A stretch of 64,000 bases of DNA from Opitutales bacterium (GCA_965197745.1 CBDANS010000007.1:672001-736000); one strand, 5' to 3'. Numbered from the stretch's first letter, positions 11,277 to 63,162 are shown. Notes: a model not told the origin generated them from the letters alone. Numbers and translations: made by a program.

Positions 11277-11616
11277 CTTCGTCTACGTCCAATTTTAAGT
11301 CCCAATTAATTAATTAGTTTTAATAAAATAACAATGGCGGGACGCACTCCGTTTCGTCCGCTTAGGAGTATAATCATAGAAATTTCATAAAATAAAAGTA
11401 AGCCTCAAATCACTTTCTTTTTTTGTGAATTTTGTGCCTTTTGTGGCTATCTTAATCAAAGACAAAGATTATGGTAAATCATCGTAGAATAAATCTTCGT
11501 CATCGTCTGCCTCCTCGTCTTCGTCCTTTTTTACCCAAATTACTAAATAATAAGGGGTATTAAATCTAATACTGTTACTCAAACTTCCCAACGGACGCGA
11601 CGGAGCGCATCCCTCC
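11277..11616. repeat. Composite array of the dispersed intergenic repeat (tail remnant, reversed REP-like hairpin, GTGGCTATCT module, full tail-arm-hairpin unit)
   Basis: Unit 11491-11616 aligns by eye with 54198-54321, 62956-63078 and 58987-59092. Segment 11411-11452 matches the reverse complement of 39831-39871. Confidence 0.9.
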
Positions 11617-11751
11617 ATATAATATATTTACGCGATTGTAAAGTTGACACGTGTATAAGGGGTTATCTATCATGTTTGAATGCGTAGAAGGGCACAGTTG
11701 TTTTTCATCTGGGTTGGAGAGGTGTTTGTTGGTTTAATTGTGGATTTTTTT

Positions 11752-12192
11752 ATGGAAGACAAGTATAACCTGATTATATATATTTTCGTGGCTATTATTG
11801 CAATAGGGGCGGCTATTTGCCTCTCCTTGCCTGAAATAATAGCTTGGCTTTCTGGTAGGACGTCATTCAAAACGGCTGCCAAAAGCTTTATTAAAGCACC
11901 ATCTACTCATACATGGATGCCAGAAAGCGAAATACTAAAAATTATCCGAAAATCATCTGCTGTCATGAAAAACAGCCCTCGGAGAAATCAACCAGCTAGG
12001 ACTATGCATGATACATTCATGTCACCGTTCATAGCTGGTCCAAGTGGGGAAACACAATACATACGTCAGCATGAAAAGGATGCATCCAAAGGAATTTTAT
12101 ATAATATTGTTGAAAAGCATCCGTCCGCTAAAAATGGAGACAAGTTCAGCAAAGAAATTATTGAATTTGAGCTATACCAAATGGTGCTCTAG
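11752..12192 (+). CDS. IS passenger: hypothetical protein with an N-terminal transmembrane helix (ORF open from 11680)
   Basis: Hydrophobic segment LIIYIFVAIIAIGAAICLSL; lies between the TIRs; no family recognised. Confidence 0.5.
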   Translation: MEDKYNLIIYIFVAIIAIGAAICLSLPEIIAWLSGRTSFKTAAKSFIKAPSTHTWMPESEILKIIRKSSAVMKNSPRRNQPARTMHDTFMSPFIAGPSGETQYIRQHEKDASKGILYNIVEKHPSAKNGDKFSKEIIEFELYQMVL

Positions 12193-12218
12193 GCATAACG
12201 GGAGAGGAAATCTTTATT

Positions 12219-12425
12219 ATGGCTATTGGAAAATATTTGAGTTTGGAAGAAGCTTGCAAAAAGGGTAAGTTAAAACGCTTTGCTAAAGAACACCAAGCTG
12301 AAGCTGACGAGCGGTTTTGGCCAACACTGGATGCAGCAGTTACAGGGAGGAAATCAAAGCAGGAAACATCTGTTCAGGCTTGTGTCGATAATTGTAACGA
12401 AACTCAAACTCTTTCAGATACTTGA
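12219..12425 (+). CDS. IS passenger: small 68-aa hypothetical protein
   Basis: RBS-like GGGAGAGG upstream and ATG start; protein-like MAIGKYLSLEEACKKGKLKRFAKEH. Overlaps the transposase 3' end convergently. Confidence 0.6.
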   Translation: MAIGKYLSLEEACKKGKLKRFAKEHQAEADERFWPTLDAAVTGRKSKQETSVQACVDNCNETQTLSDT

Positions 12426-13257
12426 AAAGATGATTTTCAGAAACATGAATATGTGTTCCACGGATAGACAATTTCAAACGAGCCCAAAATCCTTCAATGC
12501 TATTTACATGGGAGCCACCAAGCACCCATTTGCCAGCACCATGATTCACTTTCTTATGATTATATCCAACTTTGTTGAGACCCTTGTAAGAACGAAGCTC
12601 GTCTGTGTGAACGGTACTACCAGCCTTCACATTCTCTTTAATAATAGGCTGCAAGGTGCGTTTTTTGACATTGGAAACAACCTTTGTTATTACATCACCA
12701 TCTCTGTTCAGCATGCCAAACGCAATCGCCTTATTGGGTGCACCACGGCCACGCTTACCACCGGAGGACTTACCACCAATATAGGTTTCATCGGCCTCGA
12801 TATTGCCATTAAGAGGACTTTCACTATCCGTATTGGACATGTGCTCACGTATTTTATGAGCCATTCTCAAAGCAGTCGGATAAGCCACCCCAAGTTGTCT
12901 GTGAAGCTCCATAGCGGGGACTCCATGTCTTGTGGTAGTGAAAAGATAAATGGCATAAAACCATTTCTGCAATGGAACATGCGAACCTACAAACATGGTT
13001 TTGCTCATTGGATAGATTTCATGACCGCACCAAGCACACTCATAAGCGGGGTGGCGTTTAGTGCGATAGAACTTTCCATGCTTACCGCATTTTGGGCAAT
13101 CCATTGTATCACCATGTTGCTTATGCATCAGGTAATCAAGGCAGGCATTGTCATTCGGAAAATTTTGTATAAACGCTTGAAATGTCGTAGTTTTCATAAT
13201 TACCTCCCATTTTTAAAGGTATATTACAAGAATTACTTACACGTGTCAACTATATAA
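12280..13257 (+). other. 325-codon antisense ORF covering the whole transposase in codon register
   Basis: The reading frame is open across the entire transposase and its stop lies inside the right TIR. Expression is unknown. Confidence 0.3.
12340..13197 (-). CDS. IS1595-family DDE transposase
   Basis: Zn ribbon CPKC...CAWC, HTH region, catalytic EADETYIGG, VHTDE and NSIEGFW, and C-terminal YLKEFEFRYN. Confidence 0.97.
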   Translation of the reverse strand: MKTTTFQAFIQNFPNDNACLDYLMHKQHGDTMDCPKCGKHGKFYRTKRHPAYECAWCGHEIYPMSKTMFVGSHVPLQKWFYAIYLFTTTRHGVPAMELHRQLGVAYPTALRMAHKIREHMSNTDSESPLNGNIEADETYIGGKSSGGKRGRGAPNKAIAFGMLNRDGDVITKVVSNVKKRTLQPIIKENVKAGSTVHTDELRSYKGLNKVGYNHKKVNHGAGKWVLGGSHVNSIEGFWARLKLSIRGTHIHVSENHLFKYLKEFEFRYNYRHKPEQMFPALISSL

Positions 13258-13490
13258 TTACGTATATTTAAGTGATGGGGCGGCTGTCGGCATAGTCCCA
13301 CTACCTTGCAATTGGTGGCTATCTCAATCGAAGATGCCGTTAAATAGCCTTCAACCCTTATCCTGGAAACACCCCATTAAAATCACTAGACTTAAATCAA
13401 TAATATTTATTGAATAAATCGCTATTGACGGTATGCAGCACGATCTTTGCATTTAAGGTTGAATGACCAATTTTAATACCGGATTAGGCA

Positions 13491-14363: not shown

Positions 14364-14453
14364 GAGTGGAGCAGATAATATATTCCAATACGCTGGCGCA
14401 ACTATACCGGCATCATACCTTCGGGAGATAAGCGCTGCTTAACTGTTGAGCGT

Positions 14454-14780: not shown

Positions 14781-14839
14781 CTTATATATTTTCTGGTTAA
14801 TTTAATTATTTCCTAATACTTAGTTAATGAATAGATACC

Positions 14840-15085: not shown

Positions 15086-15131
15086 TACAAAATCTCAAAT
15101 TGCTATAGTATAAGAGAATTTCAAGCGGAAA

Positions 15132-20600: not shown

Positions 20601-20623
20601 TTAGATGCTCGCGGATCAAGGTA

Positions 20624-20763
20624 AGCTTCGTCTTTGTCTGCCTCCTCGTCTTCGTCCCGGGAGGTTATTATCGAAACAATAAAACTGTATATTTTATAAA
20701 TAAATAATTCGATTACAAAAATGGTGGTTAAAGGCCAAAGAGGAGGCAGACGAAGACTAAGCT
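20624..20763. repeat. MITE-like unit: two inverted (TCGTCT)n tails around an AT-rich core
   Basis: AGCTTCGTCTTTGTCTGCCTCCTCGTCTTCGTCC (20624-20657) versus the reverse complement of 20733-20763, AGCTTAGTCTTCGTCTGCCTCCTCTTTGGCC. Confidence 0.85.
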
Positions 20764-20914
20764 GTATTGAAAGATGCGTAATAATCTTCGTCTACGTTCC
20801 TATTGTCTATGTGCTTACGAATACCAGTATCCGCTCAGCTATTACCCACAACATTTTTACCTGTAAATTTTATTTTACTGGACAAATAGGATATACCAGT
20901 AAAAAAGTCTGCAC

Positions 20915-38552: not shown

Positions 38553-38584
38553 AAAATAGGATTGGTGTTATGACGAGGATTTAT

Positions 38585-38825
38585 TCTTAGTCATTCTCTT
38601 CGTCTTCTTTACTAAGATATATTAAGCATTAAATCTATGCCTATATCTCTAACTCCTAAACGGCCACGACAACGCGTGGCCCTCCCATTTGTTCTTTTTC
38701 TGGAGGGGCGCGCGTCGTCTCGTCCGCTGGGAAGTTTGAGAAATAGTCTTAAATATATTACCTGAAATTTTAAATAAATAGGGTTAAAAAGGACTAAGAC
38801 AAGGAGGCAGACGAAGACGAAGCTT
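38585..38825. repeat. About 240-bp palindromic doublet of the dispersed repeat, between convergent genes
   Basis: Hairpin CGGCCACGACAACGCGTGGCCCTCC (38661-38685) faces GGAGGGGCGCGCGTCGTCTCGTCCG (38702-38726). Each has an AT-rich arm and a TCGTC tail pointing outward. Confidence 0.9.
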
Positions 38826-38866
38826 TTGAATACTCTTTAAAGGTATACAACTATTGTTAGGCCGCA

Positions 38867-39830: not shown

Positions 39831-40030
39831 AGATAGCCACATAAGGCACAAGATATACAAAAAAGAAAGTGGAGGGCTACGCGTCGTCGTGGCCGTGGCC
39901 GTTTGAAATTTTGAGAAATAGTCTTAGAAATAATACCACTTATTTTTAAGTAATTAGGGTAAAAGAGGACGAAGACGAGGAGGCAGACGAAGATTCATTG
40001 TATGATGATTTACCTTAATCCTCGTCTTCG
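39831..40030 (-). repeat. Dispersed repeat copy in reverse orientation, with the GTGGCTATCT module attached at the hairpin end
   Basis: The reverse complement reads AAATCATCATACAATGAATCTTCGTCTGCCTCCTCGTCTTCGTCC...CGGCCACGACGACGCGTAGCCCTCC-ACTTTCTTTTTTGTATATCTTGTGCCTTATGTGGCTATCT. Confidence 0.92.
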
Positions 40031-41049: not shown

Positions 41050-41117
41050 GAAACACTTATTCGATCAAGGGCAAGCGAAGACGAAGATTAATTAACTATG
41101 TTAACCCTCATTTTCCC

Positions 41118-41920: not shown

Positions 41921-42754
41921 ATGCGATACGGGATCAGCACCACAGTTATTCTACCTGAAGAATTGGAATCGGGTCTTAATAGAATAAAAAAAGCGGGCTT
42001 TAACGAGGTTGAATTGTTATGGGAACCTCCTCATTTCGAGCTTGGAATGAAATCGATAGAAATGATTCATTCGCTTATGAATCGCTTTGAACTTTCAATG
42101 CGCGTTGGTCACAGCCCGATTACAGGCATCGATTTGGCATCACTGGATAGTGAAAAAAGAAAAGCTTCGCTGGCGGAAGTTGCCAGGTCGTTTACTTTTT
42201 TTAAGGAGCTGGGAGCTGAATCGGTGGTCGTTCACCCCAATGGCTCCTATCCTGATATGTTCAGCATGTATAGCGAAGAAAATCGAAATGCGAGCGTAAC
42301 CAACACTAAAGAATCTATTCTCGAGTTGATTGAAAGCGCAGTCGATACGGAAATAAAGATTGCTTTGGAGAATCTGTGCCATGTTGGGTCAGCGCGGCCC
42401 TTACATTCGATGGAAGATCTATTCGAGTTAATTACAGATATGCCAAGGGAGTATGTTGGCTTATGTCTTGATACTACTCACGCCCAGGTCTCAGGACACG
42501 ACCCGCTGCAGCAATTAAATGTGGCGGCGGACAGATTGTTCACCTTACATTTGCATGATACCGACGGAAACGGCAATCAACACTGGGTGCCGGGGAAAGG
42601 GATCCTTGACTGGGATGGGTTTATCGGAAGATTAGCGGAACTAAAATTTACCGGTGCAAGGACGATTGAAGTGGCTTCCACTCGTGAGACAACCGAAAGC
42701 GTCCTCGAGGGAAGTATTAATATCGCCACCGATTGGGAATCCCGTATTGGATGA
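41921..42754 (+). CDS. Sugar phosphate isomerase/epimerase (AP endonuclease 2 TIM barrel), copy 1
   Basis: VVVHP, IALEN, LCLDTTH, LHLHD, HWVPGKG and TIE metal-binding motifs. Confidence 0.92.
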   Translation: MRYGISTTVILPEELESGLNRIKKAGFNEVELLWEPPHFELGMKSIEMIHSLMNRFELSMRVGHSPITGIDLASLDSEKRKASLAEVARSFTFFKELGAESVVVHPNGSYPDMFSMYSEENRNASVTNTKESILELIESAVDTEIKIALENLCHVGSARPLHSMEDLFELITDMPREYVGLCLDTTHAQVSGHDPLQQLNVAADRLFTLHLHDTDGNGNQHWVPGKGILDWDGFIGRLAELKFTGARTIEVASTRETTESVLEGSINIATDWESRIG

Positions 42755-42980
42755 TTTTTTTGTCTTCGACGTTTAAGGAAGAATGGAAGGATGGATGATT
42801 GGATAGGTGGGATTTATTTTTGATTATAATCTATTCTTCCAAGACACCTTGCATCCTTAATCTGATATTAATTTTAGAAATAAAATTCCAATCGACAATT
42901 GTAAATAAGAAATCGATTATAGTAACTGATGTGAATTTATCCTCTGACTTTTGACCTTCAACCTTTGATTTTCGACTAAA

Positions 42981-43814
42981 ATGCGATACGGAATCAGCAC
43001 CACAGTTATTCAACCTGAAGAATTGGAATCGGGCCTTGAAAGAATAAAAAAAGCGGGCTTTACCGAGGTTGAGTTGTTATGGGAACCTCCTCATTTCGAG
43101 CTTGGAATCAAATCGATAGAAAAGATTCATTCGCTTATGAATCGCTTTAAACTTTCCATGCGCGTTGGTCACAGCCCGATTACGAACATCGATTTGGCAT
43201 CACTGGATAGTGAGAAAAGAAAAGTCTCGATAGCGGAAGTTGCCAGGTCGTTTACCTTTTTTAAGGAACTGGGAGCTGAATCGGTGGTCGTTCACCCCAA
43301 TGGCTCCGGTCTTGATATGTTCAGCATGTATCCCGAAGAAAATCGAAATGTGAGCGTAACCAAAACTAAAGAATCTATTCTCGAGTTGGTTGAAAGCGCA
43401 GTCGATACGGGAATAAAGATTGCTTTGGAAAATCTGTGCCATGTTGGGTCAGCGCGGCCCTTACATTCGATGGAAGATCTGTTCGAGTTAATTGCAGATA
43501 TGCCAAGGGAGTATGTTGGCTTATGTCTTGATACTACTCACGCCAAGTTCTCAGGACACGACCCGCTGCAGCAATTAAATGTGGCGGCGGACAGATTGTT
43601 CACCTTACATTTGCATGATACCGACGGAAACGGCGATCGACACTGGGTGCCAGGAAAAGGGATCATTGACTGGGATGGATTTATAGGAAGATTAGCGGAA
43701 CTAAAATTTACCGGTTCAAGGACTCTTGAAGTGGTTTCCACTCGTGAGACAACCGAAAGCGTCCTCGAGGGAAGCATTAAAATCGCCACCGATTGGGAAT
43801 CCCGTATTGGATGA
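42981..43814 (+). CDS. Sugar phosphate isomerase/epimerase, copy 2
   Basis: Same motifs as copy 1; about 26 of 277 residues differ (manual count). Confidence 0.92.
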   Translation: MRYGISTTVIQPEELESGLERIKKAGFTEVELLWEPPHFELGIKSIEKIHSLMNRFKLSMRVGHSPITNIDLASLDSEKRKVSIAEVARSFTFFKELGAESVVVHPNGSGLDMFSMYPEENRNVSVTKTKESILELVESAVDTGIKIALENLCHVGSARPLHSMEDLFELIADMPREYVGLCLDTTHAKFSGHDPLQQLNVAADRLFTLHLHDTDGNGDRHWVPGKGIIDWDGFIGRLAELKFTGSRTLEVVSTRETTESVLEGSIKIATDWESRIG

Positions 43815-44176: not shown

Positions 44177-46390
44177 ATGCGTATAAAAAATCTCGTATCG
44201 GTATCGCTAATTTCACTTTTATTTCCACTTCTTCTCCGAGCGCTTCCACAGGACCAGGAAGTATTTTTGGATTTTGAAGATGCCGAAGGATCGGGAGACT
44301 TTTTACTCGGTACCCCGCCCAATGATATCCAATTCATCGGGTTTACAGTAACAACGCTGGAGGACCCAAGTCTGTTGCACTCGGGAACGAAAGCATTAAC
44401 CCTGGGACCCGGCCAGGAGGGAAAAATCTTCACGAGAAAAGGGATTGCTGAAATCGAATTCTACGTGGCTGAAACCGCGGGCGCGGGCAAGATCGAGGTT
44501 CGAGAAATTACCGTCGATATTGTGGGAGTCGAATTAATTGAATTAGCTCAGCAGGGCGTTTTTACGGGTTTTCCGACCAGCATCAATCCTGATTCCAATC
44601 CCGCGCTGCAAAGAATCGTGGCTTTCAGTGGCAATTACTTCGACGAAACAGATCTCAATTACATTGACGGTATGAATGAAATAAAATTCCTGAATGTTTC
44701 GGGTACACTAGTCGTCGACGATGTGGGTTATACCCTCATCGATGGGCCGAGGAACAACACGGTATTTACTTTCTTTTCTGAATTCCCCGAGTCGAATGAT
44801 GATATTACCCTTGGAACATCACCCATTACCGCGACCTTTTCAGGTGCAGATTTATCCGAGGAAACGTCACCTCCGCTCAACGAACAATCCCGCACAAAAC
44901 GTGCTAACTGGAGAGTTCAGAATGGTGATACCGGAACGATCACCTTCGAAACACCGGCGGCGCGGGTACAATTTTTTGCCTCCACCATCACGTTAGCAGC
45001 TAGCAGTGGCGGTGAATCCGATGGGACTATTGAGGTATATGATACTGAAGATAATTTAATCGCCAGGGAAACAGACCTGCAGCAGAATGTCCTGCAGGGA
45101 TCAGGAGTTCCTCATTATACATTTCTTGCCAGTGAATTGGGAGCTGTAGGCGGCATTGCCAAAATCCTTTTAATCGATAATAAAGATGTAAATCCATTAT
45201 TCAGCTCAACGACTATCGACGACTTCGGTTTTACTCCTATTGGAGCCCCGGGGTTTGAAGGTGGCAGCGAACCGCCCCCCGCAGAAGGTCCTTCTATCAC
45301 CACCCAGCCCGCGAGCCAGGAAGTGCAGTCCGGCACAGCGGTAGTATTGTCTGTAGTGGTCAGTGGTGATGATCTTACTTATCAGTGGTTTACCGGCAAC
45401 AGCGGTGATACCGCCGCTCCCGTTGCCGGCGCTACCGGCAGCACGCTAACTACCGGTGCGCTCACCACGAGCACGAACTACTGGGCACAGATAACTAATG
45501 CCGGCGGCAGTGCTGACAGCGATACCGCGGTCATCTCGGTAGCAGCACCGGCTATTCCTCTCGTCCTCGACGGCTCGGGTGATATCGCGGGTGAAAATAT
45601 TCAGCATGCCAACGGTAATGTCTTCGACCAGATATTACTCACCGGAGAGTCCGTCCAACTCCAGGCCAAACCGGGACAGATCACCCGTGTCTCCTTCATG
45701 GACGAAACCGAGGACATCGTGCAGGTAGAATTTTCCGGTAATGGGACCTTTACCGTAACCCTCGATCCGGCCACCTTCCTCCCCCCGGCCATCCCCCCAC
45801 GCTACAACCAGGCCGTTGAGTACGTGACGGGCAAACCGAGCGTGGTCATTGACGGAGCTGACGCCAATACCTTCTTCAGCATCTTCACGGTGGGCAGGAT
45901 CAACGCCTTTAACCAGGCGCTGTTCCCCGAAGGACAGGTGTATGACGCACAGGCTGACGTGACCCTCGTGGAAGTAATTAATTCCACGGGACTTGGAGGG
46001 GTACAGCTGTCGAACACCGTGTTCAGTGGAAGCACTGGTAAAGTAGGCGTGGATGCACGCGGAGTGCCGATCGCGGTACGCTTAACGATCGGCGATATCG
46101 ATGCTGATGGTGATGCGGTGCCTCACCTCCTCTTCGGAGAAGGGTCCTTCACGGTACCTGCGGGCAACCCCGGGTTGCGCATCACCGGAGGTGACCTGTT
46201 GCAGACGAACGGCGCCGCGGTTGTAGTCGCGGAGAGCGGTTCAACAACGACCGGGTTTGAGACCCTGATCACCCAGAACAACTTCAAGTCCGACAATACA
46301 CCTCAGCCGACACTGAGCATCGATGCCACCTTTGCCAACGAAGATGGTGATGACATTACGGTGACCACAGAGGAGATTACGATAGAGTGA
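44177..46390 (+). CDS. Secreted acidic surface protein: two repeated beta-sandwich-like domains, an Ig-like domain and a conserved C-terminal domain
   Basis: Signal peptide; internal repeat ending DDVGYT / DDFGFT; Ig motif PSITTQPASQ...LTYQWF...YWAQITN; C-terminal NIQHANGNVFDQILLTG...ITGGDL. Confidence 0.85.
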   Translation: MRIKNLVSVSLISLLFPLLLRALPQDQEVFLDFEDAEGSGDFLLGTPPNDIQFIGFTVTTLEDPSLLHSGTKALTLGPGQEGKIFTRKGIAEIEFYVAETAGAGKIEVREITVDIVGVELIELAQQGVFTGFPTSINPDSNPALQRIVAFSGNYFDETDLNYIDGMNEIKFLNVSGTLVVDDVGYTLIDGPRNNTVFTFFSEFPESNDDITLGTSPITATFSGADLSEETSPPLNEQSRTKRANWRVQNGDTGTITFETPAARVQFFASTITLAASSGGESDGTIEVYDTEDNLIARETDLQQNVLQGSGVPHYTFLASELGAVGGIAKILLIDNKDVNPLFSSTTIDDFGFTPIGAPGFEGGSEPPPAEGPSITTQPASQEVQSGTAVVLSVVVSGDDLTYQWFTGNSGDTAAPVAGATGSTLTTGALTTSTNYWAQITNAGGSADSDTAVISVAAPAIPLVLDGSGDIAGENIQHANGNVFDQILLTGESVQLQAKPGQITRVSFMDETEDIVQVEFSGNGTFTVTLDPATFLPPAIPPRYNQAVEYVTGKPSVVIDGADANTFFSIFTVGRINAFNQALFPEGQVYDAQADVTLVEVINSTGLGGVQLSNTVFSGSTGKVGVDARGVPIAVRLTIGDIDADGDAVPHLLFGEGSFTVPAGNPGLRITGGDLLQTNGAAVVVAESGSTTTGFETLITQNNFKSDNTPQPTLSIDATFANEDGDDITVTTEEITIE

Positions 46391-54184: not shown

Positions 54185-54321
54185 ATCATCATACGATAAA
54201 TCATCGTCTTCGTCTGCCTCATCGTCTTCGTCCTTTTTTACTCTAATTATTAAATAATAAGGGTATAAAATCTAAGACTATTTACACACTTCCCAGCGGC
54301 CACGACGGAGCGTGGCCCTCC
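54185..54321 (+). repeat. Dispersed repeat copy (tail-arm-hairpin), between convergent genes
   Basis: AAATCATCGTCTTCGTCTGCCTCATCGTCTTCGTCC...CTTCCCAGCGGCCACGACGGAGCGTGGCCCTCC. Confidence 0.93.
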
Positions 54322-54378
54322 AAAAACCTAACCACCTAAAACGTAACACAGAAAATCTAAGGATTTTCTACCTTTTGA

Positions 54379-55656
54379 CTAAATCCTTTTTATCCCCTCA
54401 CTGATAACAGCGATGGCTTTTTCAATTATCTTATTATCATGGGCGGTACTGATGAAGCACACTTCATACGCTGACGGAGGCAAGTATACACCATGATTGA
54501 GAGCATATTGAAATAAGGATTTAAAAAGCTCCGTATTGCTGTTACTGACGTCGTCTACATTATTGATAGGCTTATCGGAGAATAGCATACAAAAAATCGA
54601 TCCTGCCTGGGGTACCTGCACAGGCAGTCCTTTTCCTTCAGCTGCTTCGATAATAGCATTCTTAATTTTCCTTCCTGCCTGTTCAAGTTGATCATAGGGA
54701 TCCGTCTCATGCAGTAATCTCAGTGCTGCTATGCCCGCCGCTAAGGCCAGAGGATTGCCGCTCAATGTCCCCGCCTGGTAGACAGGGCCCTGGGGTGCCA
54801 GCATATCCATTATTTCAGCTTTTCCACCAAAAGCACCTACAGGTAACCCTCCGCCAATAATTTTACCGAGGGCTGTGAGATCTGGCGTTACATTTTCCTT
54901 TTCCTGAACACCGCCAGATGAGACTCGGAACCCGGAAATAACTTCGTCGAAAATGAGAATACTTTCATATTTATGACAAAGGGCTCTCAGTTTTTCGAGG
55001 TAGCCGGAATGAGGCAGAATCAGACCATTATTGGCGGGGTAGGGTTCCAGGATAACCCCGGCGATAGTATCGCCATTTTCGATGAAGGCAGTTTCCAGTG
55101 CAGCACTATCATTGAAGGGTAAAACCAGCGTTTCACCCGCGAAACTGTTGGGAATACCCTCGCTGTCGGGATGTCCAAAAGTAAGCGCTCCCGAACCGGC
55201 TTTTACAAGTAGAGAATCGACGTGACCATGATAACATCCTGCGAACTTAATGATTTTATCGCGGTGAGTGTACCCTCGCGCCAGTCGAATGCAGGACATC
55301 GTCGCCTCGGTGCCGCTATTGACCATCCGTACTTTTTCCATGGAAGGGAGTGCTTGCGTGATGATTTCAGCTATCTCTACTTCATAAGGATGAGGTGTTC
55401 CAAAACTCGTTCCTTTGGAAAGCGCTTCTGCGATAGCTTGATTGATGACAGGATGATTATGACCGTGGATAGCCGGTCCCCAGGAGCAGACAAAATCAAT
55501 TAATTCATGGCCTTCTACAGTGACGAGAACGGCCCCATTTGCCTGTTGAGTATAGAAGGGTGAACCACCGACTGAATGGAAGGCCCTCACGGGTGAATTC
55601 ACGCCACCCGGCATTATTTTCAAAGCTCTTTTGTATAATTCTTCAGAGGTACTCAT
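54379..55656 (-). CDS. hemL: Glutamate-1-semialdehyde 2,1-aminomutase
   Basis: [39 protein letters not shown] and AGTLSGNP motifs. Confidence 0.98.
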
Positions 55657-55688
55657 TAATAAATTCAGGTTAAAATAAGGAATGGGGT

Positions 55689-55830
55689 AAATCTTTGTCT
55701 TCGTCTGCGCTTGCCACGTCGTAGTCTACTGGCGAAGACGGTTTTGCCTCTTCGTCCTGAAAATAGCGCTCTGTGAGATTGAATTGGTTTAATCTGTGAC
55801 GAAGACGAAGAGGTAGACGAAGACGAAGAG
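55689..55830. repeat. MITE-like unit with inverted (TCGTCT)n tails and a nested 39-nt hairpin insertion
   Basis: The left tail is split at 55708/55748 by the insert; the right tail is GACGAAGACGAAGAGGTAGACGAAGACGAAGA (55798-55829). Confidence 0.85.
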
Positions 55831-55858
55831 TATTCCATAAACAAATGCTCATTCAAGT

Positions 55859-57493
55859 TTAGCTGATATAACGCTGCACAATGGGAATACGACGGCCGAC
55901 ACCAAATGCGAGGGGGGTAATCTTTAAGCCAGGTGCCGCTTGTTTTCTTTTGTATTCATTTAAATCCACTTTGCGGATTATGTCTTTAACCGTGGTTTTA
56001 TCGAAACCAGCTTCAATAATCTGATCCGAAAATTTTCCTTCTTCGACATAGAGTTCGAGTATCTGGTCTAATATTTCATAGGGAGGCAGTGAATCCTCAT
56101 CTTTTTGATCGGGCCGTAATTCAGCTGAGGGAGGCTTTTCAATTGAATTCCAGGGAATAATTTCCCGCTCTCTATTAATCCAGCGTGCCAGGTCGTAGAC
56201 TTTTACTTTAGGCAAGTCAGAGATGACTGCAAGTCCTCCGGCCATATCGCCATATAAAGTACAATAACCAACGGCCAATTCGCTTTTATTTCCCGTTGTG
56301 AGAAGAAGGGCGCCAAATTTATTCGATACCGCCATAAGGAGAACACCGCGACTGCGCGCCTGTATATTTTCTTCTGCTACGTCTCGATCTTTTCCTATAA
56401 ATACTGGGTTAAGAATTCTTTCCGTGGCGTCCACCATATCAGCTATTGGCAGTTCGTGATAGGTAATGCCCAGCGTTTGCGCTAGTATTGCGGCATCATC
56501 CTTACTATGTTGGCTGGAAATAGATGAAGGCAGACTGATGCCGATTACATTTTCTTTGCCCAATGCGTCAACTGCAATGGCTGCAGTCACCGAGGAGTCA
56601 ATACCTCCACTAAGACCGAGCAACGCTGTTTTGAATCCACTTTTGTGCGCATAGTCGCGCAAACCTAAAGTTAACGCATCGTGGATATCCGCTATTTCAT
56701 TCTCATCAGGGAATTCGATCTCTATACTGCTCTTCGTGTCTATTACCCTTAAGTCCTCTTTAAAGCTTTTAAGCCTGCAGAGTGTTTTACCTTGAGAGGA
56801 TGTGACCAGGCTGTTTCCATCGAATATTAATTCGTCATTGCCGCCGATCGAATTACAATAAAACACGGGGCAACCGCAGCGTTTGGCAGCATCTTTAGCC
56901 AGTGTTTCACGAAAGTTTCTCTTACCCTTGTGCCATGGACTGGAGGAAAGATTTAAGAGCACATCAATCTTTTCTCCTGCGAGTTGTTCAATCGGATCCT
57001 TGTTGTAGTGTTTTCCGGCATCGATATTGGGTCCTGTCCAGATATCTTCACAGATGGTGACACCCAGTTTTAAACCTTTGAAAACTATTATCTCTGGCTT
57101 TGCCGAAGATTCGAAATAACGGTCTTCGTCAAATACATCGTAAGTGGGCAAAAGGCATTTATGGGCAATTTTTTCTACCTTACCACCCACACACCACGCG
57201 GCGGCATTGTAGAATCTGCGACCTTTTTTTTCAGGATTAAGGGCGACAAATCCAATGAGAGCGGGAATATCCCCCGTTTTCGCGGCAATTTCATGGAGTG
57301 AGGCTTCATTGTCGGGAACAAAACGGCTTTTAAAGAGCAGATCGCGCGGGGGATAGCCGGTTATGACCAGTTCTGGGAATAAAATAAGCTCAGCTCCGTC
57401 CTCGCATAGTTTTTCGTAGGCCGTCAGTATTTTTTGACGGTTGGCGGGTAAATCACCTACCGTTGTATTAATTTGAGCCAGGCCTATTTTCAT
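55859..57493 (-). CDS. nadE: Glutamine-dependent NAD+ synthetase
   Basis: Nitrilase domain ([20 protein letters not shown]) plus [20 protein letters not shown] and PPSAEL. Confidence 0.97.
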
Positions 57494-57586
57494 AATTAAA
57501 ATTTACAAGTATTGAGCTTTTTAAAAAAATTTAAAACTTTGCAAAATGAAAGCTGTTATGACCTTTTCTGTCAGGATAGTAATAAA

Positions 57587-58951
57587 ATGGAAAGGATCAA
57601 AACAATACATTTAGGCCACTCTCATAAACTGGAGAGAAAGTTCAAGGTAAAGTTTTTTCAGCTTATTGCCTGGCTCTTAACTTTTTTTCTGGCAGAGACT
57701 GATGGGCTGGCTGAGACCGTAAAACTATCGCTTAGTCAGACATTGGAGATCATCGAAGATGAAAATTTGCAGGTATTAATTAATAGACAAGTGGTTGAAG
57801 AAACCCTACAGAGATCGTACATTGAACGGGCTAGATTGTTGCCTTCATTAAGTCTTGAAAGTGTTCAAATCCGCACGCAATTCGTCAATGTTGGGAGAGG
57901 ATTTGAATTTCCGAGTCCACCGCCAGTGAATCGATTCGACGCAAAAATTTCGGGGGATTTTCCACTTTTTAACGCCAATAACTACGCCAGCTATCGTTTG
58001 GCAAAATTTCAGCACGAAATTTCCGAACTTAATTACAAAAGTGTTCTTGAGGAAATACTCGAAGCGACAGCTATTACTTATCTTACACACTTGCGTAATC
58101 TCAAGCGAATTGAAGTGCTCGATGCTAATATTATACGGGATCGCGTTCTTTTAAATCTTGCCGAAGCACAATTTCAAGCGGGTGTGGCCGCGAGGATCGA
58201 TGTCACGCGCGCGGAGGGACAGCTCGCGACAGATGAAAAGGTGCGATTGCAGCAGGATACTTTGGTCATGCGCAGTGAACTTCAATTAAAACGGTTGCTT
58301 AAACTTAATCTTGAGGCGGATTTGCAGCTTGAGTATATCGAATTGAATAATCCCGATCAAAGCCAGGCCTTTAATTTTTCTCTGGAACACATTCATGAAT
58401 TGCGGCCCGATTACATAGAAGCAGCACATGAACTGACCCGAAATCGTTATGCAAAAAAAGCAGCCAATCTTGAAAAGTTGCCTACAGTGCAGGTCTTTGG
58501 TGAGTATGGTTATGCCACAGAGGAGGCTTTTGATGGTAATGAAGATGATGCCTGGATAGTGGGTCTGTATTTATCTTTTCCTATTTTTGAAGGTTTTCGC
58601 ATACGCTCCAATATTCATCAGGCCTTAGCGGCTATTCGCAGGCAGGAGTTGGCTGTCGAAGACCTGCAGTTGGAAATCAATTCGGAATATATACTCGCGC
58701 GTCAGGACGCCCGATCACGTTTTAAACAAATCGACATTGTCCGTAAGAAAGTAGAGTTGAGCGATGAAGAACTAGAATTGGCACGCAATCGATTTGAAGG
58801 GGGTGTCGCTGATAATCGTGATCTTACAGACGCGCAGGCATCACTGGCTGAGGCCAATGATGAACTGGTTGATGCGGTCTATCTCTACAACTTGAGTCGC
58901 CTTGAGTTGGCGCGCGCGCGTGGTGATGTACGATTGTTGATCAGTGAATAA
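57587..58951 (+). CDS. TolC family outer-membrane protein (start uncertain; ORF open from 57512)
   Basis: Two OEP repeats (LLPSLSL / KLPTVQV, FPLFN / FPIFEG, QFQAGV / RFEGGV). Confidence 0.88.
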   Translation: MERIKTIHLGHSHKLERKFKVKFFQLIAWLLTFFLAETDGLAETVKLSLSQTLEIIEDENLQVLINRQVVEETLQRSYIERARLLPSLSLESVQIRTQFVNVGRGFEFPSPPPVNRFDAKISGDFPLFNANNYASYRLAKFQHEISELNYKSVLEEILEATAITYLTHLRNLKRIEVLDANIIRDRVLLNLAEAQFQAGVAARIDVTRAEGQLATDEKVRLQQDTLVMRSELQLKRLLKLNLEADLQLEYIELNNPDQSQAFNFSLEHIHELRPDYIEAAHELTRNRYAKKAANLEKLPTVQVFGEYGYATEEAFDGNEDDAWIVGLYLSFPIFEGFRIRSNIHQALAAIRRQELAVEDLQLEINSEYILARQDARSRFKQIDIVRKKVELSDEELELARNRFEGGVADNRDLTDAQASLAEANDELVDAVYLYNLSRLELARARGDVRLLISE

Positions 58952-58986
58952 ATTTAAACGCTTTCGGTATTGAGATGATTAAAATG

Positions 58987-59250
58987 ATCTTCGTCTTCGT
59001 CTGCCTCCTCGTCTTGGTCCACTTATACCCTAATTACTAAATAATAATGGGTATTAAATCTGAGACTGTTATTCATACTTCCCAACGGACGCTCCGTCGT
59101 GGCCGCTTAAGAGTGTGATTAAACAATGGGTAGAAATTTATATAGGTTATATGTTATACTCAAAACACTTTCTAATTTGTGCTTTTGGAAGATCTCACTT
59201 CGCTCGGTAGTGGCTATCTCAATCCAGGGACCAAGACCAAGACGCAGATA
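58987..59250 (+). repeat. Dispersed repeat copy with a collapsed hairpin doublet and a downstream GTGGCTATCT module
   Basis: Tail and arm as in the other copies; junction CGGACGCTCCGTCGTGGCCGC at 59086-59106; 59089-59225 parallels 11341-11457. Confidence 0.9.
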
Positions 59251-59439
59251 ATTAGAACCAAACCTCGATCTTATGGCTGTTAAGGACAGTCGCCAGGAGC
59301 ATGCTTTTCTCTTCTCGACTCGCTTAATTCATGATAAAGGCTCATTCTGGTATTTCAATTATCAGGTTTTTTAAAACAATTCGGGATTGGTGTTGTTTTT
59401 ACATATTAAAACTAATCGAATTTTTTAGTATCATTTGAG

Positions 59440-60603
59440 ATGTCAGTTATTCTGGAGGACAAGAAAGAGAAAAAATCCAATGTCCGGTCCTATCGTAATA
59501 CGGCCAGTCAGCCCTATGATTACGAATCGACCCTGGTCAGCATTGTTCTGACTCTCTTGATTCACCTCTTGGTCTATTGGATTATTCCAAAAAATATTGC
59601 GGTGTCCTTCGAGGAAAGCGGCAGAAAAAATGAAGTGGAATATGTATTTGAAGAGTTTAAAGAAGAGCCCGATACCGAGACGATGCGCTTTGTCGAAACC
59701 AATCCTGATGTCCCCACGAATGTGCCGGATAATACAATTAATATTGCTGCCCGTGACCAACAGGCAGCACAGCCTGATCCTTCCGAAATTGGTGATGAAG
59801 CGACACCTTTCCTCAACGGAGAGGAGGAGTTATCTCCTAAAATTCTGACGGGCAGACTGCCCTCACAATCGCAGCCAATTGTTGCCCCTTATCAAGAAGC
59901 ATCTGCATCTCAGGAATCACCGCAAAGCAGTTTATCATCGGTAGAAGATGGCGTAACTATGGTTGCTCCACAACCGCCACCAATTCCAGACTTCATTGAT
60001 CAGGAGCCCGAGATTGAAGATGGGCTGGCGAGCAGGTTGGAACCTGGGGAAGGAAAGGTTCCTACGGAGGAGGACTCGGATCAAAAACATATCAATCTTA
60101 ACCTCAGTCCCATTAATTCAGATAGCGTGGATCCACTGCAGCCTGGTGCTCAACCGCAAGTAGCCAGTGTGAATTCGCAGTCACAACCGCAATTACCGCG
60201 TCCCCGCCCAAGACTTTCTTCCGATGTCTTGCCGGGTCCTACGATGAAATCAATGACCGGGGTATCAGGCCTGGGAATGATTTCGATCGAAGCCAAATTC
60301 AGTGAATATGGTGATTATCTCCAGCGTATGTATGAAGCGATAGGCTATCAATGGTTATTGCTTGCCAATCAAACACGCCGGGCTGCTGCCCAAATTTCCT
60401 CCCGCGTTATTCTTGATTTTGTGATCTTTAAAAATGGGGAGATTAAAGACCTTCAAGTTATTCATTCCACCGCCGGCCAGACAGCTACGCTTATCTGCAA
60501 AGATGCGGTTCAATCGCGCACGCCCTTTGGTAAGTGGACTGAGGAAATGGTTCGGACCCTGGGAGACGAACAGGAGATTCGGGTGACATTTATTTATCAA
60601 TGA
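59440..60603 (+). CDS. TonB/TolA-like protein (single TM, Pro/acidic linker, C-terminal domain)
   Basis: TM segment SIVLTLLIHLL containing His; long P/E/S/Q-rich region; C-terminal YLQRMYEAI...W...FVIFKNGEI...PFGKW...VTFIY. Confidence 0.7.
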   Translation: MSVILEDKKEKKSNVRSYRNTASQPYDYESTLVSIVLTLLIHLLVYWIIPKNIAVSFEESGRKNEVEYVFEEFKEEPDTETMRFVETNPDVPTNVPDNTINIAARDQQAAQPDPSEIGDEATPFLNGEEELSPKILTGRLPSQSQPIVAPYQEASASQESPQSSLSSVEDGVTMVAPQPPPIPDFIDQEPEIEDGLASRLEPGEGKVPTEEDSDQKHINLNLSPINSDSVDPLQPGAQPQVASVNSQSQPQLPRPRPRLSSDVLPGPTMKSMTGVSGLGMISIEAKFSEYGDYLQRMYEAIGYQWLLLANQTRRAAAQISSRVILDFVIFKNGEIKDLQVIHSTAGQTATLICKDAVQSRTPFGKWTEEMVRTLGDEQEIRVTFIYQ

Positions 60604-61374
60604 GACTTACGCTGGAAATAAAGGGAGCCGATTTGCCGCTGGGTCCAGGGGTGACAGTCAACAATGCCCATTCTTGCGGATTGATTGCTTTTAATAAGCC
60701 TGATGGTATCCGCTCTCATCCCAACACGGAAAAAGTGGATCAACGCGCTCTGTTGACCTGTTTATACGATTTGAAGCAGCAATATTACTCTTGGGTATTG
60801 CCAGATGGAAAAGAGAAAAAAATGTACTTACTGAACCGTTTGGATTCACCCGCATCCGGATTGATTATAGGTGCGACAACGCGTGAGCTTGCTGAATATG
60901 TGAAGAATTGTTTTCTTAATAAAAAGATTGATAAACTTTACCATGCGATCGTTTTTAACAGTCGGCTAAAAATTAATAGTCCCTGGCGTGACACTATTAA
61001 AGTTACAAGGAAAAGCGGTAAGCTTCGTTCCCAGGTGGATTCCCCTCAAGGCGATTTCGCTCTTACCCACGTTCGCCTGTCGAGTTCTCCTTCTGAAAAT
61101 TCTAATTGCGCTCTTATAGAATTACGACCCGTAACCGGGCGCACCCATCAACTGCGTGTTCAGTGCGCAAAAAGAAAATTTCCCATAGTCGGCGACAGTA
61201 CATATGGCGACTTTCGTCTTAATCGAGAGCTGCAAAAAATTACGGGGCAGCAAACGGCTCTTTTTGCATGCCAGTCATATTCGCATTCCATTGGAGGATG
61301 ATAAAGAGACGGATTATTTTGAAGCGGAATCTAAATTGCCGCCAGTATTTTACAATTTGATAAATAAGCATTAA
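60600..61374 (+). pseudogene. RluA-family RNA pseudouridine synthase with a 1-nt frameshift near 61244 (pseudogene or sequencing error)
   Basis: NKPDG, NRLD, TGRTHQLRV and PIVGDSTYG are in frame. The conserved tail GSKRLFLHASHIRIP...LPPVF continues in another frame to TAA at 61372-61374. Confidence 0.85.
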
Positions 61375-61545
61375 AGCATGTCCCAACGCGGGGAGAAGTG
61401 TAACTGTATTATTAAAGTCACCTACTTTAAATATGAATTGAAGAGACGATCCCTCACGGGAAAGATCCGAGCTGAAGCTGGTATTCATAAGCACCATGTT
61501 TACTCGCCTGGAATGGAAGATGTCGTCCCGCTACAGGGGGACTCG

Positions 61546-61670
61546 GTAGCTTCGTCATTTTGCTCCTCGCAATGACAATAGGAGTGAAACCTGTAAGAAC
61601 ATATTTAGAAAATACTATCAATTTAATAATTTGTCATTGCGAGACCTGCAACCGCAGGACGAAGCAATCC
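61546..61670. repeat. Inverted pair of TGTC-type REP-like palindromes
   Basis: TGTCATTGCGAGACCTGCAACCGCAGGACGAAGCAATCC (61632-61670) versus the reverse complement of 61545-61577, TGTCATTGCGAGGAGCAAAATGACGAAGCTACC. Confidence 0.8.
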
Positions 61671-61895
61671 AGGCGAATGTCTATTGCCTGTCCTTGGCCT
61701 ACGGAGGGTAGGGTTTACCCTTAATCGAACGATTGCCAGTTTACAAATCCAGATAGCCACGCGTTGTCGCAGCCGTATAGGAGCCTGAATAAATGATAGG
61801 CCGCTATCTAAATGGAAGCACAAAGACCAAGATGATGACGTTGACGAAGACGAAGATAAACTATTTTTTAATACCAATCCACTCGAATCAGGACA

Positions 61896-62948
61896 ATGAT
61901 TATACCCAAAGTAGATAGACTTTCAGACCAGCAACTCCACGAGATTGAAGCGATCGTTGGTGATTTTGGATGTCGTATTCAAGTCATCATTGGTGAACAT
62001 AGAAATATTTACGCTATTATCGGTGACGAGCGTAGCGAACTGATGGTCAACCGCCTGGTTGGACTCGATTACGTCGACCGTGTCGATCGCATGGAGTCGG
62101 TCTATAAATTGATGGATGTTCACTCTGAACTTTCCCATCACGAAATAACTATCGGAGGTAATATACTGGGAAAAAAGCTTTTTGTCACAGCAGGACTTTG
62201 CACAATTGACCCGCAAAATCCGCATTATTTTCTTGAGACCGCGCAAGCGGTAAAGGAGGCAGGTGCGCACGCTATCCGTGGCGGTATATGGAAGCCCCGT
62301 ACCACACCTCATTCTTTTCAGGGTGACAGTAAATCCATGGAAATATTGTTAGAGGCGCGTGAGCAAACAGGGTTACCGGCCCTCACTGAAGTGATGGATG
62401 AAGAACAGATAAATATGGCCGTTGAGGCTAACGTTGATATTTTCCAGGTTGGCACCAGAAATGCGCTGAATTACTCACTCCTTAAGCAGATTGGAAAAGC
62501 GACTGCAGGTAGCAGAATAGCGGTTTTCCTCAAGCGCAGCCGTCACATGGGTCCGATTGATGAATATATCTCAGCCGGTGAGTACGTTGTCTCCGGTGGG
62601 AATCCCAATCTTGTATTCTGTCCGCGGGGAACAATGCCAAATCTCGATGGATACCGAAATCATCCTGATGAGTCCATTACCCCGCTTCTCAAAGAAAAAA
62701 CCTGGGCGCCGGTTGTTGTCGATCCCTCGCATGCCGTGGGCCGCGCTGCTTATGTGCCGGCATGTAGCCTGGCCGCAATTGCTTATGGCGCTGACGGCCT
62801 TAACATTGAAACGCATATTAATCCGCCACGAGGTATCGGAGATGATCCCGTCCAAAGCGTGACTCCCGATATATTAGCCGATGTTATAAAAAACGCGGCC
62901 GAATTGTGGAATCTGTCCTCAAGGTATACCCCCTCAAAAGAAATTTAA
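61896..62948 (+). CDS. aroF: 3-deoxy-7-phosphoheptulonate (DAHP) synthase, type I-beta with N-terminal regulatory domain
   Basis: RGGIWKPRTTPHSFQG, QVGTRN, VDPSH, GADGL and ETH motifs. Confidence 0.88.
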   Translation: MIIPKVDRLSDQQLHEIEAIVGDFGCRIQVIIGEHRNIYAIIGDERSELMVNRLVGLDYVDRVDRMESVYKLMDVHSELSHHEITIGGNILGKKLFVTAGLCTIDPQNPHYFLETAQAVKEAGAHAIRGGIWKPRTTPHSFQGDSKSMEILLEAREQTGLPALTEVMDEEQINMAVEANVDIFQVGTRNALNYSLLKQIGKATAGSRIAVFLKRSRHMGPIDEYISAGEYVVSGGNPNLVFCPRGTMPNLDGYRNHPDESITPLLKEKTWAPVVVDPSHAVGRAAYVPACSLAAIAYGADGLNIETHINPPRGIGDDPVQSVTPDILADVIKNAAELWNLSSRYTPSKEI

Positions 62949-62955
62949 TAAATAT

Positions 62956-63162
62956 AAATCATCGTCTTCGTCTGCCTCTTGGTCTTCGTCCTCAATTAAC
63001 TCAATTACTTAAAATAATAGAATAATACCTAAGTCTATTTCTCATACTACCAACGGCCACGACGACGCGTGGCCCTCCAGAAATAGGAAAAAGGTATCAC
63101 GTGTCTTCCAATCGGTTTTTTTCCGAAGGGCCACAACCCAAGACGAAGAAGAAATGAAGATT
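62956..63162. repeat. Dispersed repeat copy (62956-63078) plus an eroded inverted partner (63125-63162), between convergent genes
   Basis: AAATCATCGTCTTCGTCTGCCTCTTGGTCTTCGTCC...ACGGCCACGACGACGCGTGGCCCTCC, then GAAGGGCCAC and CCAAGACGAAGAAGAAATGAAGATT. Confidence 0.9.

What the first reader, a model, noticed from the sequence alone, without database searches (positions are those of the whole stretch)
11277..63162. Unannotated modular dispersed repeat system: (TCGTCT)n tail, AT-rich arm and GGAG-footed hairpin
Seen: a unit of about 125 bp (AAATC[A/T]TCGTCTTCGTCTGCCTCCTCGTCTTCGTCC, about 60 nt of conserved AT-rich arm, then CGG-hairpin-CCCTCC) recurs at 11491-11616, 38585-38685, 38702-38825 (rc), 39871-39995 (rc), 54198-54321, 58987-59092 and 62956-63078. 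Tail-only pieces occur at 11277, 20624, 20763 (rc), 41075 (rc), 55690, 55829 (rc), 61845 (rc) and 63140 (rc). All copies are intergenic and diverged, and I saw no consistent TSD. Known: REP/REPIN/BIME elements are intergenic hairpins with a GTAG- or GGAG-type foot, spread by RAYT (TnpA-REP) HUH nucleases. Inference: a non-autonomous family in which a REP-like hairpin travels with a periodic hexamer tail and a conserved arm, an architecture I do not recognise as described. If this density holds genome-wide it would have hundreds of copies.
Basis: partly seen in the sequence, partly recalled or inferred. Interest (0 to 1): 0.85.

Follow-up and report, generated by a model that had tools for sequence, protein, structure and literature searches.

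The report
Locally copied hybrid repeat unit
The 125-base unit is a real hybrid of two separate repeat families, a known transposase-linked hairpin and a six-base tract that elsewhere brackets small four-helix-bundle genes, and this hybrid has been copied 13 times within one 140-kilobase stretch of the chromosome rather than across the whole genome.

Summary
The repeat is real, but it is not one element with hundreds of copies. The hairpin is a REP: 214 copies, compensatory stem changes, and it flanks two RAYT genes in this genome. The (TCGTCT)n tail is a separate family of 140 copies. It brackets a four-helix-bundle (PF05635/TIGR02436) gene in a relative, and inward-facing six-base tracts flank 48 of 80 homologous genes against 0 of 73 controls. 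The AT-rich arm defines only 13 copies, all within C7:683.5-823.7 kb. Flank sharing among REPs and among tails falls about tenfold with distance here; a 50-locus sample of a relative did not show this. Orthologous gaps are often empty in relatives. All five IS110 copies examined sit in a tail. Most likely RAYT cleavage and rejoining copies the tail-arm-REP segment between nearby repeat mosaics (inferred); gene conversion is the main rival. It is a new variant of REP/BIME mosaics. I found no paper on the hexamer/four-helix link, but this scan noted it earlier in other genomes.

The parts
11491..11617 (+). Hybrid unit 1: tail (11491-11527), arm (11528-11590), inverted REP (11591-11617; GGAG foot on the - strand)
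38582..38686 (+). Hybrid unit 2, decayed tail and shortened arm; joined foot-to-foot by a 14-nt linker to unit 3
38701..38826 (-). Hybrid unit 3; units 2+3 form an inverted doublet in a 315-nt gap that is 63-66 nt in three relatives
39870..39996 (-). Hybrid unit 4 (tail one hexamer shorter, 6-nt duplication at the REP stem)
54198..54322 (+). Hybrid unit 5, intact REP, no closing tail
58985..59110 (+). Hybrid unit 6: tail and arm intact, REP end reads as a collapsed foot-to-foot pair
59225..59251 (-). Closing tail of the envelope opened at 58985
62956..63079 (+). Hybrid unit 7
63140..63162 (-). Weak, decayed closing tail (not called by the PWM at 8 bits; read from the sequence)
20622..20765 (.). 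Tail...tail doublet (inward-facing tails, 90-nt spacer); a third weak tail at 20782-20808
55690..55832 (.). Tail...tail doublet; the left tail carries a small hairpin insert
41064..41090 (-). Single tail between smpB and a SpoU methylase gene
61561..61859 (.). Mosaic: two TGTCATTGCGAG modules (61561, 61630), a degenerate REP (61750) and a closing tail (61833-61859), in a 595-nt gap that is 31-36 nt in two relatives
11273..11480 (.). Mosaic upstream of unit 1: weak tail (11273), degenerate REP (11335), TAGCCAC..GGCACAA module (11430), and a tail-to-tail linker shared with four other copies of the clade
39832..39853 (+). TAGCCAC..GGCACAA module beside the foot of unit 4

Best explanation
The unit is a hybrid segment of a BIME-like intergenic mosaic. 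Its right end is a REP hairpin (GGAG foot, 7-bp stem, 6-nt loop) served by two RAYT genes elsewhere in the genome. Its left end is a period-6 tract that belongs to the inverted ends of four-helix-bundle (PF05635/TIGR02436, Avd-like) gene cassettes and has spread as gene-less tail...tail envelopes. The arm is ordinary AT-rich spacer caught once between the two. These assignments rest on tool results (confidence about 0.9). Inferred (about 0.5): RAYT bound to a REP cuts single-stranded DNA at CT sites some distance away and rejoins it, as shown in vitro for E. coli TnpA-REP. The tail is CT-rich on the strand that also carries the CT of the inverted REP's CTCC. Two cuts would release tail-arm-inverted REP, which re-enters another repeat cluster, mostly nearby, giving a clade of 13 copies in 140 kb. 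The tail hitchhikes; its cognate gene was not found in this assembly.
For: REP: 214 copies; stem pairs 7/22 CG 121 vs AT 79 and 9/20 AT 126 vs GC 78. Two NF047646 RAYT genes over the cut-off, each with inward-facing REPs on both sides; one has tail-REP units beside it. Tail: brackets a TIGR02436 gene in G002 (L052); inward tracts on both sides of 48 of 80 homologous genes vs 0 of 73 distal controls (60 of 80 vs 0 of 73 by a looser score). Tail and REP share 44 of 2320 gaps, 4.9 expected. Adjacent tail/REP pairs face inward in 30 of 57 (p=7e-6). Arm: 13 hits at E<1e-5, all in C7:683,528-823,740, next best E=0.08; 0 of 200,000 draws of 13 REP sites were that clustered. Flank sharing decays with distance: REP flanks 24 of 288 pairs at 1-20 kb vs 12 of 2047 at 400-800 kb; tail flanks 30 of 330 at 1-50 kb vs 2 of 1350 at 200-600 kb, and still with the clade region removed. 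Shared blocks have variable ends, often inside the REP or the tail. CT per base is 0.144 on the tail strand vs 0.017 on the other and 0.053 genome-wide; 71 of 214 REPs have CT directly before GGAG. TnpA-REP cleavage at CT 5' or 3' of the REP, at a distance, with strand transfer and capture of flanks: passages of PMC3333891 and PMC8266576.
Against: No cleavage, circle or insertion event was observed; no listed joint in four public runs skipped a unit at its own site (contigs only, low depth, 15 of 60 joints shown). The arm itself is not CT-poor (0.087 per base), so CT spacing alone does not define the ends. No replication-strand bias of tail-REP pairs (16 vs 14), against a lagging-strand explanation of local spread. 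Within the clade identity does not fall with distance (rho -0.07). A 50-locus sample of G002 showed no distance effect (1 of 94, 1 of 230, 2 of 423, 4 of 736 pairs). In G002 tails mostly form outer envelopes around other modules, and tail/REP adjacency was 6 inward vs 6 other. The REP-proximal half of the arm also occurs in 11 more dispersed copies. That a GGAG foot guides CT cleavage is extrapolated from GTAG systems.
Confidence: 0.55

Rival explanations
1. Same parts, but the 13 copies arose by host homologous recombination (gene conversion) between nearby pre-existing mosaics, the tail and the REP acting as two short homology arms; no dedicated enzyme is needed for the arm's spread.
For: Distance decay for both REP and tail flanks. 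Orthologous gaps are co-occupied more than chance but with different contents: 7 of 9 G001-filled and 10 of 13 G002-filled gaps are also filled in G000 (p=4e-4 and 3e-6). REP variant and arm assort independently and block ends fall inside repeats. No strand bias. A passage of PMC8049555 attributes tandem local REPIN amplification to host machinery.
Against: Homology arms are only 25-35 nt. Gaps holding units are short and empty in all relatives compared (315 vs 66/66/63 nt; 489 vs 173/182/140 nt), which needs insertion at some stage or repeated loss. That passage concerns tandem copies, not copies 8-50 kb apart.
Confidence: 0.27
2. The four-helix-bundle protein, alone or as an adaptor for a host enzyme, mobilises tail...tail envelopes; REPs and other modules insert inside them and ride along, so the tail is the driver.
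For: Tails are the outermost, inward-facing ends of clusters (74 inward vs 9 outward; REPs 55 vs 54). 7 of 13 units have a clear closing tail and 2 a weak one. Gene-bearing and gene-less envelopes lie in tandem with a shared linker at L052. Other four-helix-bundle genes of this genome carry their own inverted 6-7-base tracts.
Against: No tail-flanked gene among 14 PF05635 hits in G000 (best 40% identity, flanked by a different hexamer) or among the 16 of 18 G001 hits fetched, though the genomes are 92-94% complete. No catalytic activity is known to me for this fold; the only solved relative hit is 2GSC, uncharacterised (E=0.0012). No reverse transcriptase (PF00078), the partner of Avd, in 4 of 4 genomes searched.
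Confidence: 0.12
3. A single non-autonomous element family with a fixed tail-arm-hairpin architecture and hundreds of copies.
For: 13 copies share all three parts at 56-87% arm identity.
Against: Only 13 copies, one region. Ends occur in many other combinations. The arm was not found in 743 kb of fetched loci from other genomes; BLAST of G001-G003 gave only matches of up to about 60 nt over the units; two exact-pattern metagenome scans were empty.
Confidence: 0.03
4. A conserved functional RNA or regulatory element (terminator, stabiliser) kept by selection.
For: REPs and tails are enriched between convergent genes (52 of 386 and 35 of 386 gaps vs 65 and 63 of 1934 others); the REP stem covaries.
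Against: No Rfam match in the window. Consensus folding of the seven window copies finds only the REP stem, none in tail or arm. Sites are not conserved in relatives.
Confidence: 0.03

Closest known systems
REP / BIME with TnpA-REP (RAYT) in REPtrons (PMC3333891, PMC8266576, PMC6006769; passages read)
   Same: Short intergenic stem-loop with a 5' tetranucleotide foot, alternating dimers with short conserved linkers, a RAYT gene flanked by the same REPs, variable linkers.
   Different: Foot is GGAG, not GTAG/GTGG ('GGAG' does not occur in the main text of PMC3733652 or PMC6006769; their figures were not visible). One end of the copied unit is a non-palindromic hexamer tract from another gene family. 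Copies form clades over tens to 140 kb, not only tandem arrays.
REPINs (PMC3116915; passages read)
   Same: Two inward-facing ends around a spacer; non-autonomous; RAYT in trans; true REP-REP doublets also occur here (29 head-to-head pairs).
   Different: Only one end is a REP, the unit does not fold into one long hairpin, and the clade is strongly clustered, whereas REPIN doublets were reported as randomly distributed.
GTAG REP families of Opitutus terrae, hybrid dimers and REPs associated with other repeats (PMC3733652; passages and a supplement search)
   Same: Several REP families in one Verrucomicrobia genome; hybrid dimers of different REP families; REPs inserted in other repeated tracts.
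   Different: The hybrids described there join two REP families or put REPs in palindromes; no hexamer tract or four-helix-bundle gene appears in what I read. Figure 1 consensus sequences could not be compared.
PF05635 / TIGR02436 four-helix-bundle (23S rRNA IVP, Avd-like) proteins (PMC10053308; passages read)
   Same: The tail-flanked gene in G002 belongs to this family.
   Different: Described there as a 23S rRNA intervening-sequence product or DGR accessory; here there is no rRNA or reverse-transcriptase context and the gene sits between inverted hexamer tracts.
IS110 elements that target REPs (ISPpu9; search listings and abstract starts only)
   Same: An IS110 family element uses a dispersed intergenic repeat as its landing site.
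   Different: The target here is the hexamer tail, not the REP hairpin.
Cyanobacterial small dispersed repeats nested in heptamer tandem repeats (recalled; not retrieved)
   Same: Nested mosaics of tiny repeats inside short tandem tracts.
   Different: Recalled only; no sequence comparison was made.

Membership tests
RAYT-associated REP (hairpin part) | 20-40 nt stem-loop in high intergenic copy number | tested here: met
   214 copies, 200 outside crude ORF calls, 7-bp stem with two compensatory positions
RAYT-associated REP (hairpin part) | 5' GTAG-type tetranucleotide foot | tested here: inconclusive
   A conserved foot is present at the stem base but reads GGAG in about 207 of 214 copies, a variant of the GTAG/GTGG consensus
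RAYT-associated REP (hairpin part) | Same REPs flank a RAYT (HUH/Y1) gene | tested here: met
   Two NF047646 genes over cut-off with inward REPs on both sides
RAYT-associated REP (hairpin part) | Binding and cleavage by the cognate RAYT | not testable with these tools
   Needs an in vitro assay
REPIN (whole 125-nt unit) | Two REPs of one family in inverted orientation around a spacer | tested here: not met
   One REP only; the other end is a hexamer tract
REPIN (whole 125-nt unit) | Whole unit folds as one hairpin | tested here: not met
   Consensus fold of seven copies gives only the REP stem
REPIN (whole 125-nt unit) | Random spread over extragenic space | tested here: not met
   13 of 13 copies within 140 kb; 0 of 200,000 random draws
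BIME-type mosaic | Alternately oriented REPs joined by short conserved linkers and other motifs | tested here: met
   49 foot-to-foot pairs, 26 with gaps of 8-17 nt, and 29 head-to-head pairs; shared linker in units 2/3 and other clade copies
MITE | Terminal inverted repeats at the two ends | tested here: not met
   Tail and REP ends are unrelated
MITE | Target-site duplication | tested here: inconclusive
   None visible in the 13-copy alignment; empty orthologous sites are too diverged to place junctions; no formal test; ISfinder not available
Four-helix-bundle cassette end (tail part; not a published family as far as I found) | Inward-facing period-6 tracts on both sides of a PF05635/TIGR02436 gene | tested here: met
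   L052 in G002 by PWM; 48 of 80 homologous loci vs 0 of 73 controls. The strict pattern did not score L052 itself or any of 44 family-level loci
Four-helix-bundle cassette end (tail part) | Cognate gene present in the same genome | tested here: not met
   0 of 14 PF05635 hits in G000 are tail-flanked; assembly 92% complete
Diversity-generating retroelement / retroelement | Reverse transcriptase gene | tested here: not met
   PF00078 not found in 4 of 4 genomes searched
Known structured RNA family | Rfam match at gathering score | tested here: not met
   0 matches in the window

The most novel reading that the evidence does not exclude
Four-helix-bundle (Avd-like) genes define an undescribed class of repeat-bounded mobile cassettes, parallel to REPtrons, whose hexamer ends spread as gene-less envelopes. 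These ends and RAYT REPs are interchangeable termini of one shared cut-and-rejoin economy that spreads hybrid units by short hops along the chromosome, so spacer clades record a neighbourhood-limited mobility, and an IS110 element has evolved to target the hexamer end.
Probability: 0.3. Interest if true: 0.78.

Novelty: new variant of a known kind. Interest (0 to 1): 0.5.

Why it matters
How REPs and REPINs disperse in vivo is described as unresolved in the passages I read (PMC8266576). Here a neutral spacer tags one lineage of copies and shows that they spread within about 140 kb, and the same distance decay holds for other spacers in this genome. That is a directly testable constraint on the mechanism (short-range reinsertion or conversion, not free diffusion). 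The tail also ties a large family of proteins of unknown function (PF05635/TIGR02436) to a specific DNA motif, which gives a concrete binding assay. If only gene conversion is at work, it remains an ordinary REP mosaic with a useful marker.

Tried and rejected
Rfam and tRNA scans of the window: nothing. PF01797 found only one Y1 protein, not flanked by these REPs; the NCBIfam model found the two real RAYTs. One search used a wrong loop length and found 0 even in G000; it was discarded and redone on the family only, so the REP was not validly searched in the 37 other order members. GxxExxY (2 hits) and GIY-YIG (7 of 8 hits inspected) genes are flanked by other repeats, not by this hairpin or arm; one GIY-YIG cassette is nested inside a tail pair. 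A hairpin visible in some arms is not supported by consensus folding. Lagging-strand bias: none (16 vs 14). Distance-identity trend within the clade: none. Distance decay in G002: not seen in 50 loci chosen from the listed tail matches (81 matches in all). Origin of the arm from a RAYT end or the L052 cassette: no match. Reverse transcriptase: none. Two metagenome pattern scans: 0 hits. Sequencing runs: no RNA holder listed, which is no evidence on expression; four runs are contigs only and showed no empty-site joint among those listed, the repeat-to-repeat joints being cross-matches from other copies. No structure or complex prediction was run, as no binding claim is made. Literature searches for a four-helix-bundle/hexamer link or a hybrid REP unit returned nothing relevant; the library lacks most subscription papers, and figures of PMC3733652 were not visible.
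Full report
Observation. The window is G000:C7:672001-736000 of a 4.45-Mb assembly, 92% complete. Earlier scan notes call the organism a marine Opitutales bacterium; I did not test that. The seven units exist at the stated places and align. A profile from them hits 181 places in the genome and 0 in the reversed genome. All window copies lie between housekeeping genes such as glgB, a LeuA-type synthase, smpB, NAD synthase and DAHP synthase. There is no Rfam or tRNA match. Contigs of runs X2 and X5 cover 54204-64000 in overlapping pieces with few or no differences. Two copies are damaged: 38585 (decayed tail) and 58987 (collapsed REP pair).

The hairpin is a REP. A weight matrix finds 218 copies, 214 after removing an overlap between contigs C4 and C7. 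On its own strand it reads GGAG foot, 7-bp stem, 6-nt loop. Two stem positions covary (CG 121/AT 79; AT 126/GC 78). Two RAYT genes over the NF047646 cut-off carry it on both sides, facing inward. A pattern with one mismatch finds 155 copies in G000 and 57, 34 and 1 in the three family members. Foot-to-foot pairs (49) and head-to-head pairs (29) are the usual BIME and REPIN arrangements.

The tail is a second family. There are 143 hits, 140 without the overlap. A 19-nt pattern gives 61 matches in G000, 18 in G001, 81 in G002, 0 in G003 and 1 in 37 other order members. None of the 14 PF05635 hits in G000 is tail-flanked; most carry other inverted 6-7-base tracts. In G002 one four-helix-bundle gene (141 aa, TIGR02436) lies between inward-facing tails, with gene-less tail pairs in tandem on both sides (L052). 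Of 103 relatives of that protein found in the genome collection the best 80 were kept, mostly titled Verrucomicrobiota. Of these, 48 have inward-facing (CTCGTC)-type tracts on both sides against 0 of 73 distal controls; a looser period-6 score gives 60 of 80 against 0 of 73. The strict pattern did not score L052 itself. So (TCGTCT)n is best read as an AT-shifted form of the terminal tract of this gene subfamily. Tails are nearly always the outer, inward-facing end of a cluster (74 vs 9).

The arm is a local clade. A profile of the arm alone, built from the 13 copies, hits those 13 at E<1e-5, all in C7:683,528-823,740; the next hit has E=0.08. Seven lie in this window. Arm identities are 56-87%. 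No draw of 13 REP sites in 200,000 was so clustered. The REP-proximal half of the arm recurs in 11 more dispersed copies. The full arm was not found in 743 kb of fetched loci from other genomes, including the syntenic region of G001 and G002, nor as a long BLAST match in G001-G003. Local sharing is general in this genome. REP flanks are shared by 24 of 288 pairs at 1-20 kb, 16 of 474 at 50-100 kb, 12 of 2047 at 400-800 kb and 28 of 8028 on different contigs; the best match lies within 100 kb for 33 of 66 flanks, against a permutation mean of 5.0 and maximum of 14. Tail flanks behave alike (30 of 330, 20 of 765, 2 of 1350, 4 of 973), also without the clade region (6 of 160, 8 of 320, 6 of 1460). 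Against generality, 50 loci from G002 showed no such trend, and there is no trend inside the clade.

Coupling of the two ends. Tail and REP share 44 of 2320 gaps where 4.9 are expected. Of 57 adjacent pairs 30 face inward, as in the unit (p=7e-6). Three more end families mix into the same gaps: a GTGG-footed REP that flanks other RAYTs in G001 and G002, a TGTCATTGCGAG module that flanks GIY-YIG genes, and a TAGCCAC..GGCACAA module. Shared blocks between loci have variable ends, often inside a REP or a tail, and five clade copies also share the linker and inverted tail upstream.

Mobility. Over about 260 kb of G000 compared with fetched stretches of relatives, counting any of the five families: of 95 gaps syntenic with G001, 15 are filled only in G000, 2 only in G001, 7 in both; of 98 with G002, 10, 3 and 10; of 29 with G003, 7, 0 and 0. 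The gap holding units 2 and 3 is 315 nt here and 66, 66 and 63 nt in the relatives; the gap at 61301 is 595 nt against 36 and 31. Shared occupancy is above chance (p=4e-4, 3e-6) but contents differ, so these are hot spots with turnover. With two genera the direction, gain or loss, is not fixed. No movement was seen directly.

Mechanism. Shown: the parts, their cognate genes, co-occurrence, polarity, local clades and variable occupancy. From papers (passages read): E. coli TnpA-REP binds single-stranded REP, cuts at CT 5' or 3' of it, also at a distance and within the inverted REP, and joins the ends; the authors propose excision of single-stranded circles, integration near an existing REP, capture of flanks and local amplification (PMC3333891; PMC8266576). 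Cuts at both would release tail-arm-inverted REP; tails differing by whole hexamers fit this. Weak points: the arm is not CT-poor (0.087), there is no replication-strand bias (16 vs 14), and CT choice by a GGAG foot is extrapolated. Gene conversion between neighbouring mosaics explains the local clades equally well but not the empty sites. A tail-driven model fits the envelope structure but lacks a cognate gene here, a known catalytic activity or a reverse transcriptase.

Comparison with what is known. The hairpin is a member of the RAYT-associated REPs with a GGAG foot variant. The unit works like a BIME/REPIN segment but fails the REPIN definition (one REP, no long hairpin, not randomly spread; PMC3116915 passages) and the MITE definition. 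PMC3733652 (passages; supplement search) describes hybrid REP dimers and REPs inside other repeats, but not this kind of partner; its Figure 1 could not be seen. PMC10053308 (passages) links PF05635 to Avd. Eight searches found no paper on hexamer-flanked four-helix-bundle genes or hybrid REP/hexamer units, within a library that lacks most subscription papers. This scan noted the hexamer/four-helix link earlier in other genomes; my reading was fixed before that look-up, and those notes are not independent evidence.

Verdict. Real, non-autonomous, a new variant of REP/BIME mosaics. The claim of one new family with hundreds of copies fails. What is worth keeping is the neighbourhood-limited spread marked by the arm, the four-helix-bundle origin of the tail, and the IS110 that targets the tail. 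Interest 0.5.

Noticed in passing
G000 C5:450291-451554, C7:658003-659290, C7:1406260-1407534, C7:2015217-2016491; L063 (G001:C1:3714600-3716700): All 4 near-identical IS110 copies in G000 and 1 related copy in G001 (NF033542 match) are inserted in a tail at the same AG core. Two G000 copies also share about 85 nt of left flank. The bridge RNA was not analysed.
   Followed up: partly
G000 C6:296993-305700 (L027 and beyond): REP doublets within 10 kb of a RAYT gene carry that gene's last codons as spacer; also noted earlier by the scan.
   Followed up: partly
G000 PF05635 loci L002-L015: Most four-helix-bundle genes are bracketed by their own inverted 6-7-base tracts, different for each subfamily; one sits between ATP-synthase-like genes (my reading of the flanks) and one inside a duplicated tRNA end.
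   Followed up: no
G000 C7:483519-483960, C7:1541875-1542340, C7:1545541-1546006, C6:787803-788270: Small GIY-YIG genes are flanked by inverted TGTCATTGCGAG (CGTC-type REP-like) modules, 173 hits genome-wide; PMC3733652 says CGTC repeats seem to lack a dedicated transposase.
   Followed up: partly
L210, L212, L214 (G001, G002): A second RAYT type is flanked by the GTGG-footed REP, which has 78 hits in G000 but no such RAYT among the three hits there.
   Followed up: no
window 55690-55760; G000 C7:738980, C7:746360: Small hairpin inserts sit inside tails and REP loops; earlier scan notes describe this micro-insert family.
   Followed up: no
window 41822-43814: Two tandem copies of a 277-aa xylose-isomerase-like TIM barrel gene, 93% identical over the first 300 nt; relatives show one 91% match elsewhere.
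   Followed up: no
G000 C7:1.6-2.0 Mb and C5:0.1-0.4 Mb: All five repeat families are nearly absent from these regions; the C7 one spans a switch in GC skew.
   Followed up: no
G000 C4:210667-214707 and C7:1-4041: The end of contig C4 duplicates the start of C7 in reverse, an assembly overlap removed from counts.
   Followed up: yes
window 44177-46390: This 737-aa Ig_7-domain gene draws very deep, varied coverage from contigs of public runs; it probably belongs to a multi-copy protein family seen in the k-mer scan.
   Followed up: no
window 11680-12340: A 170-aa ORF without a Pfam match and a short ORF after it follow unit 1; the gene pair around them was not found syntenic in the relatives' fetched stretches, so they may be cargo.
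   Followed up: no
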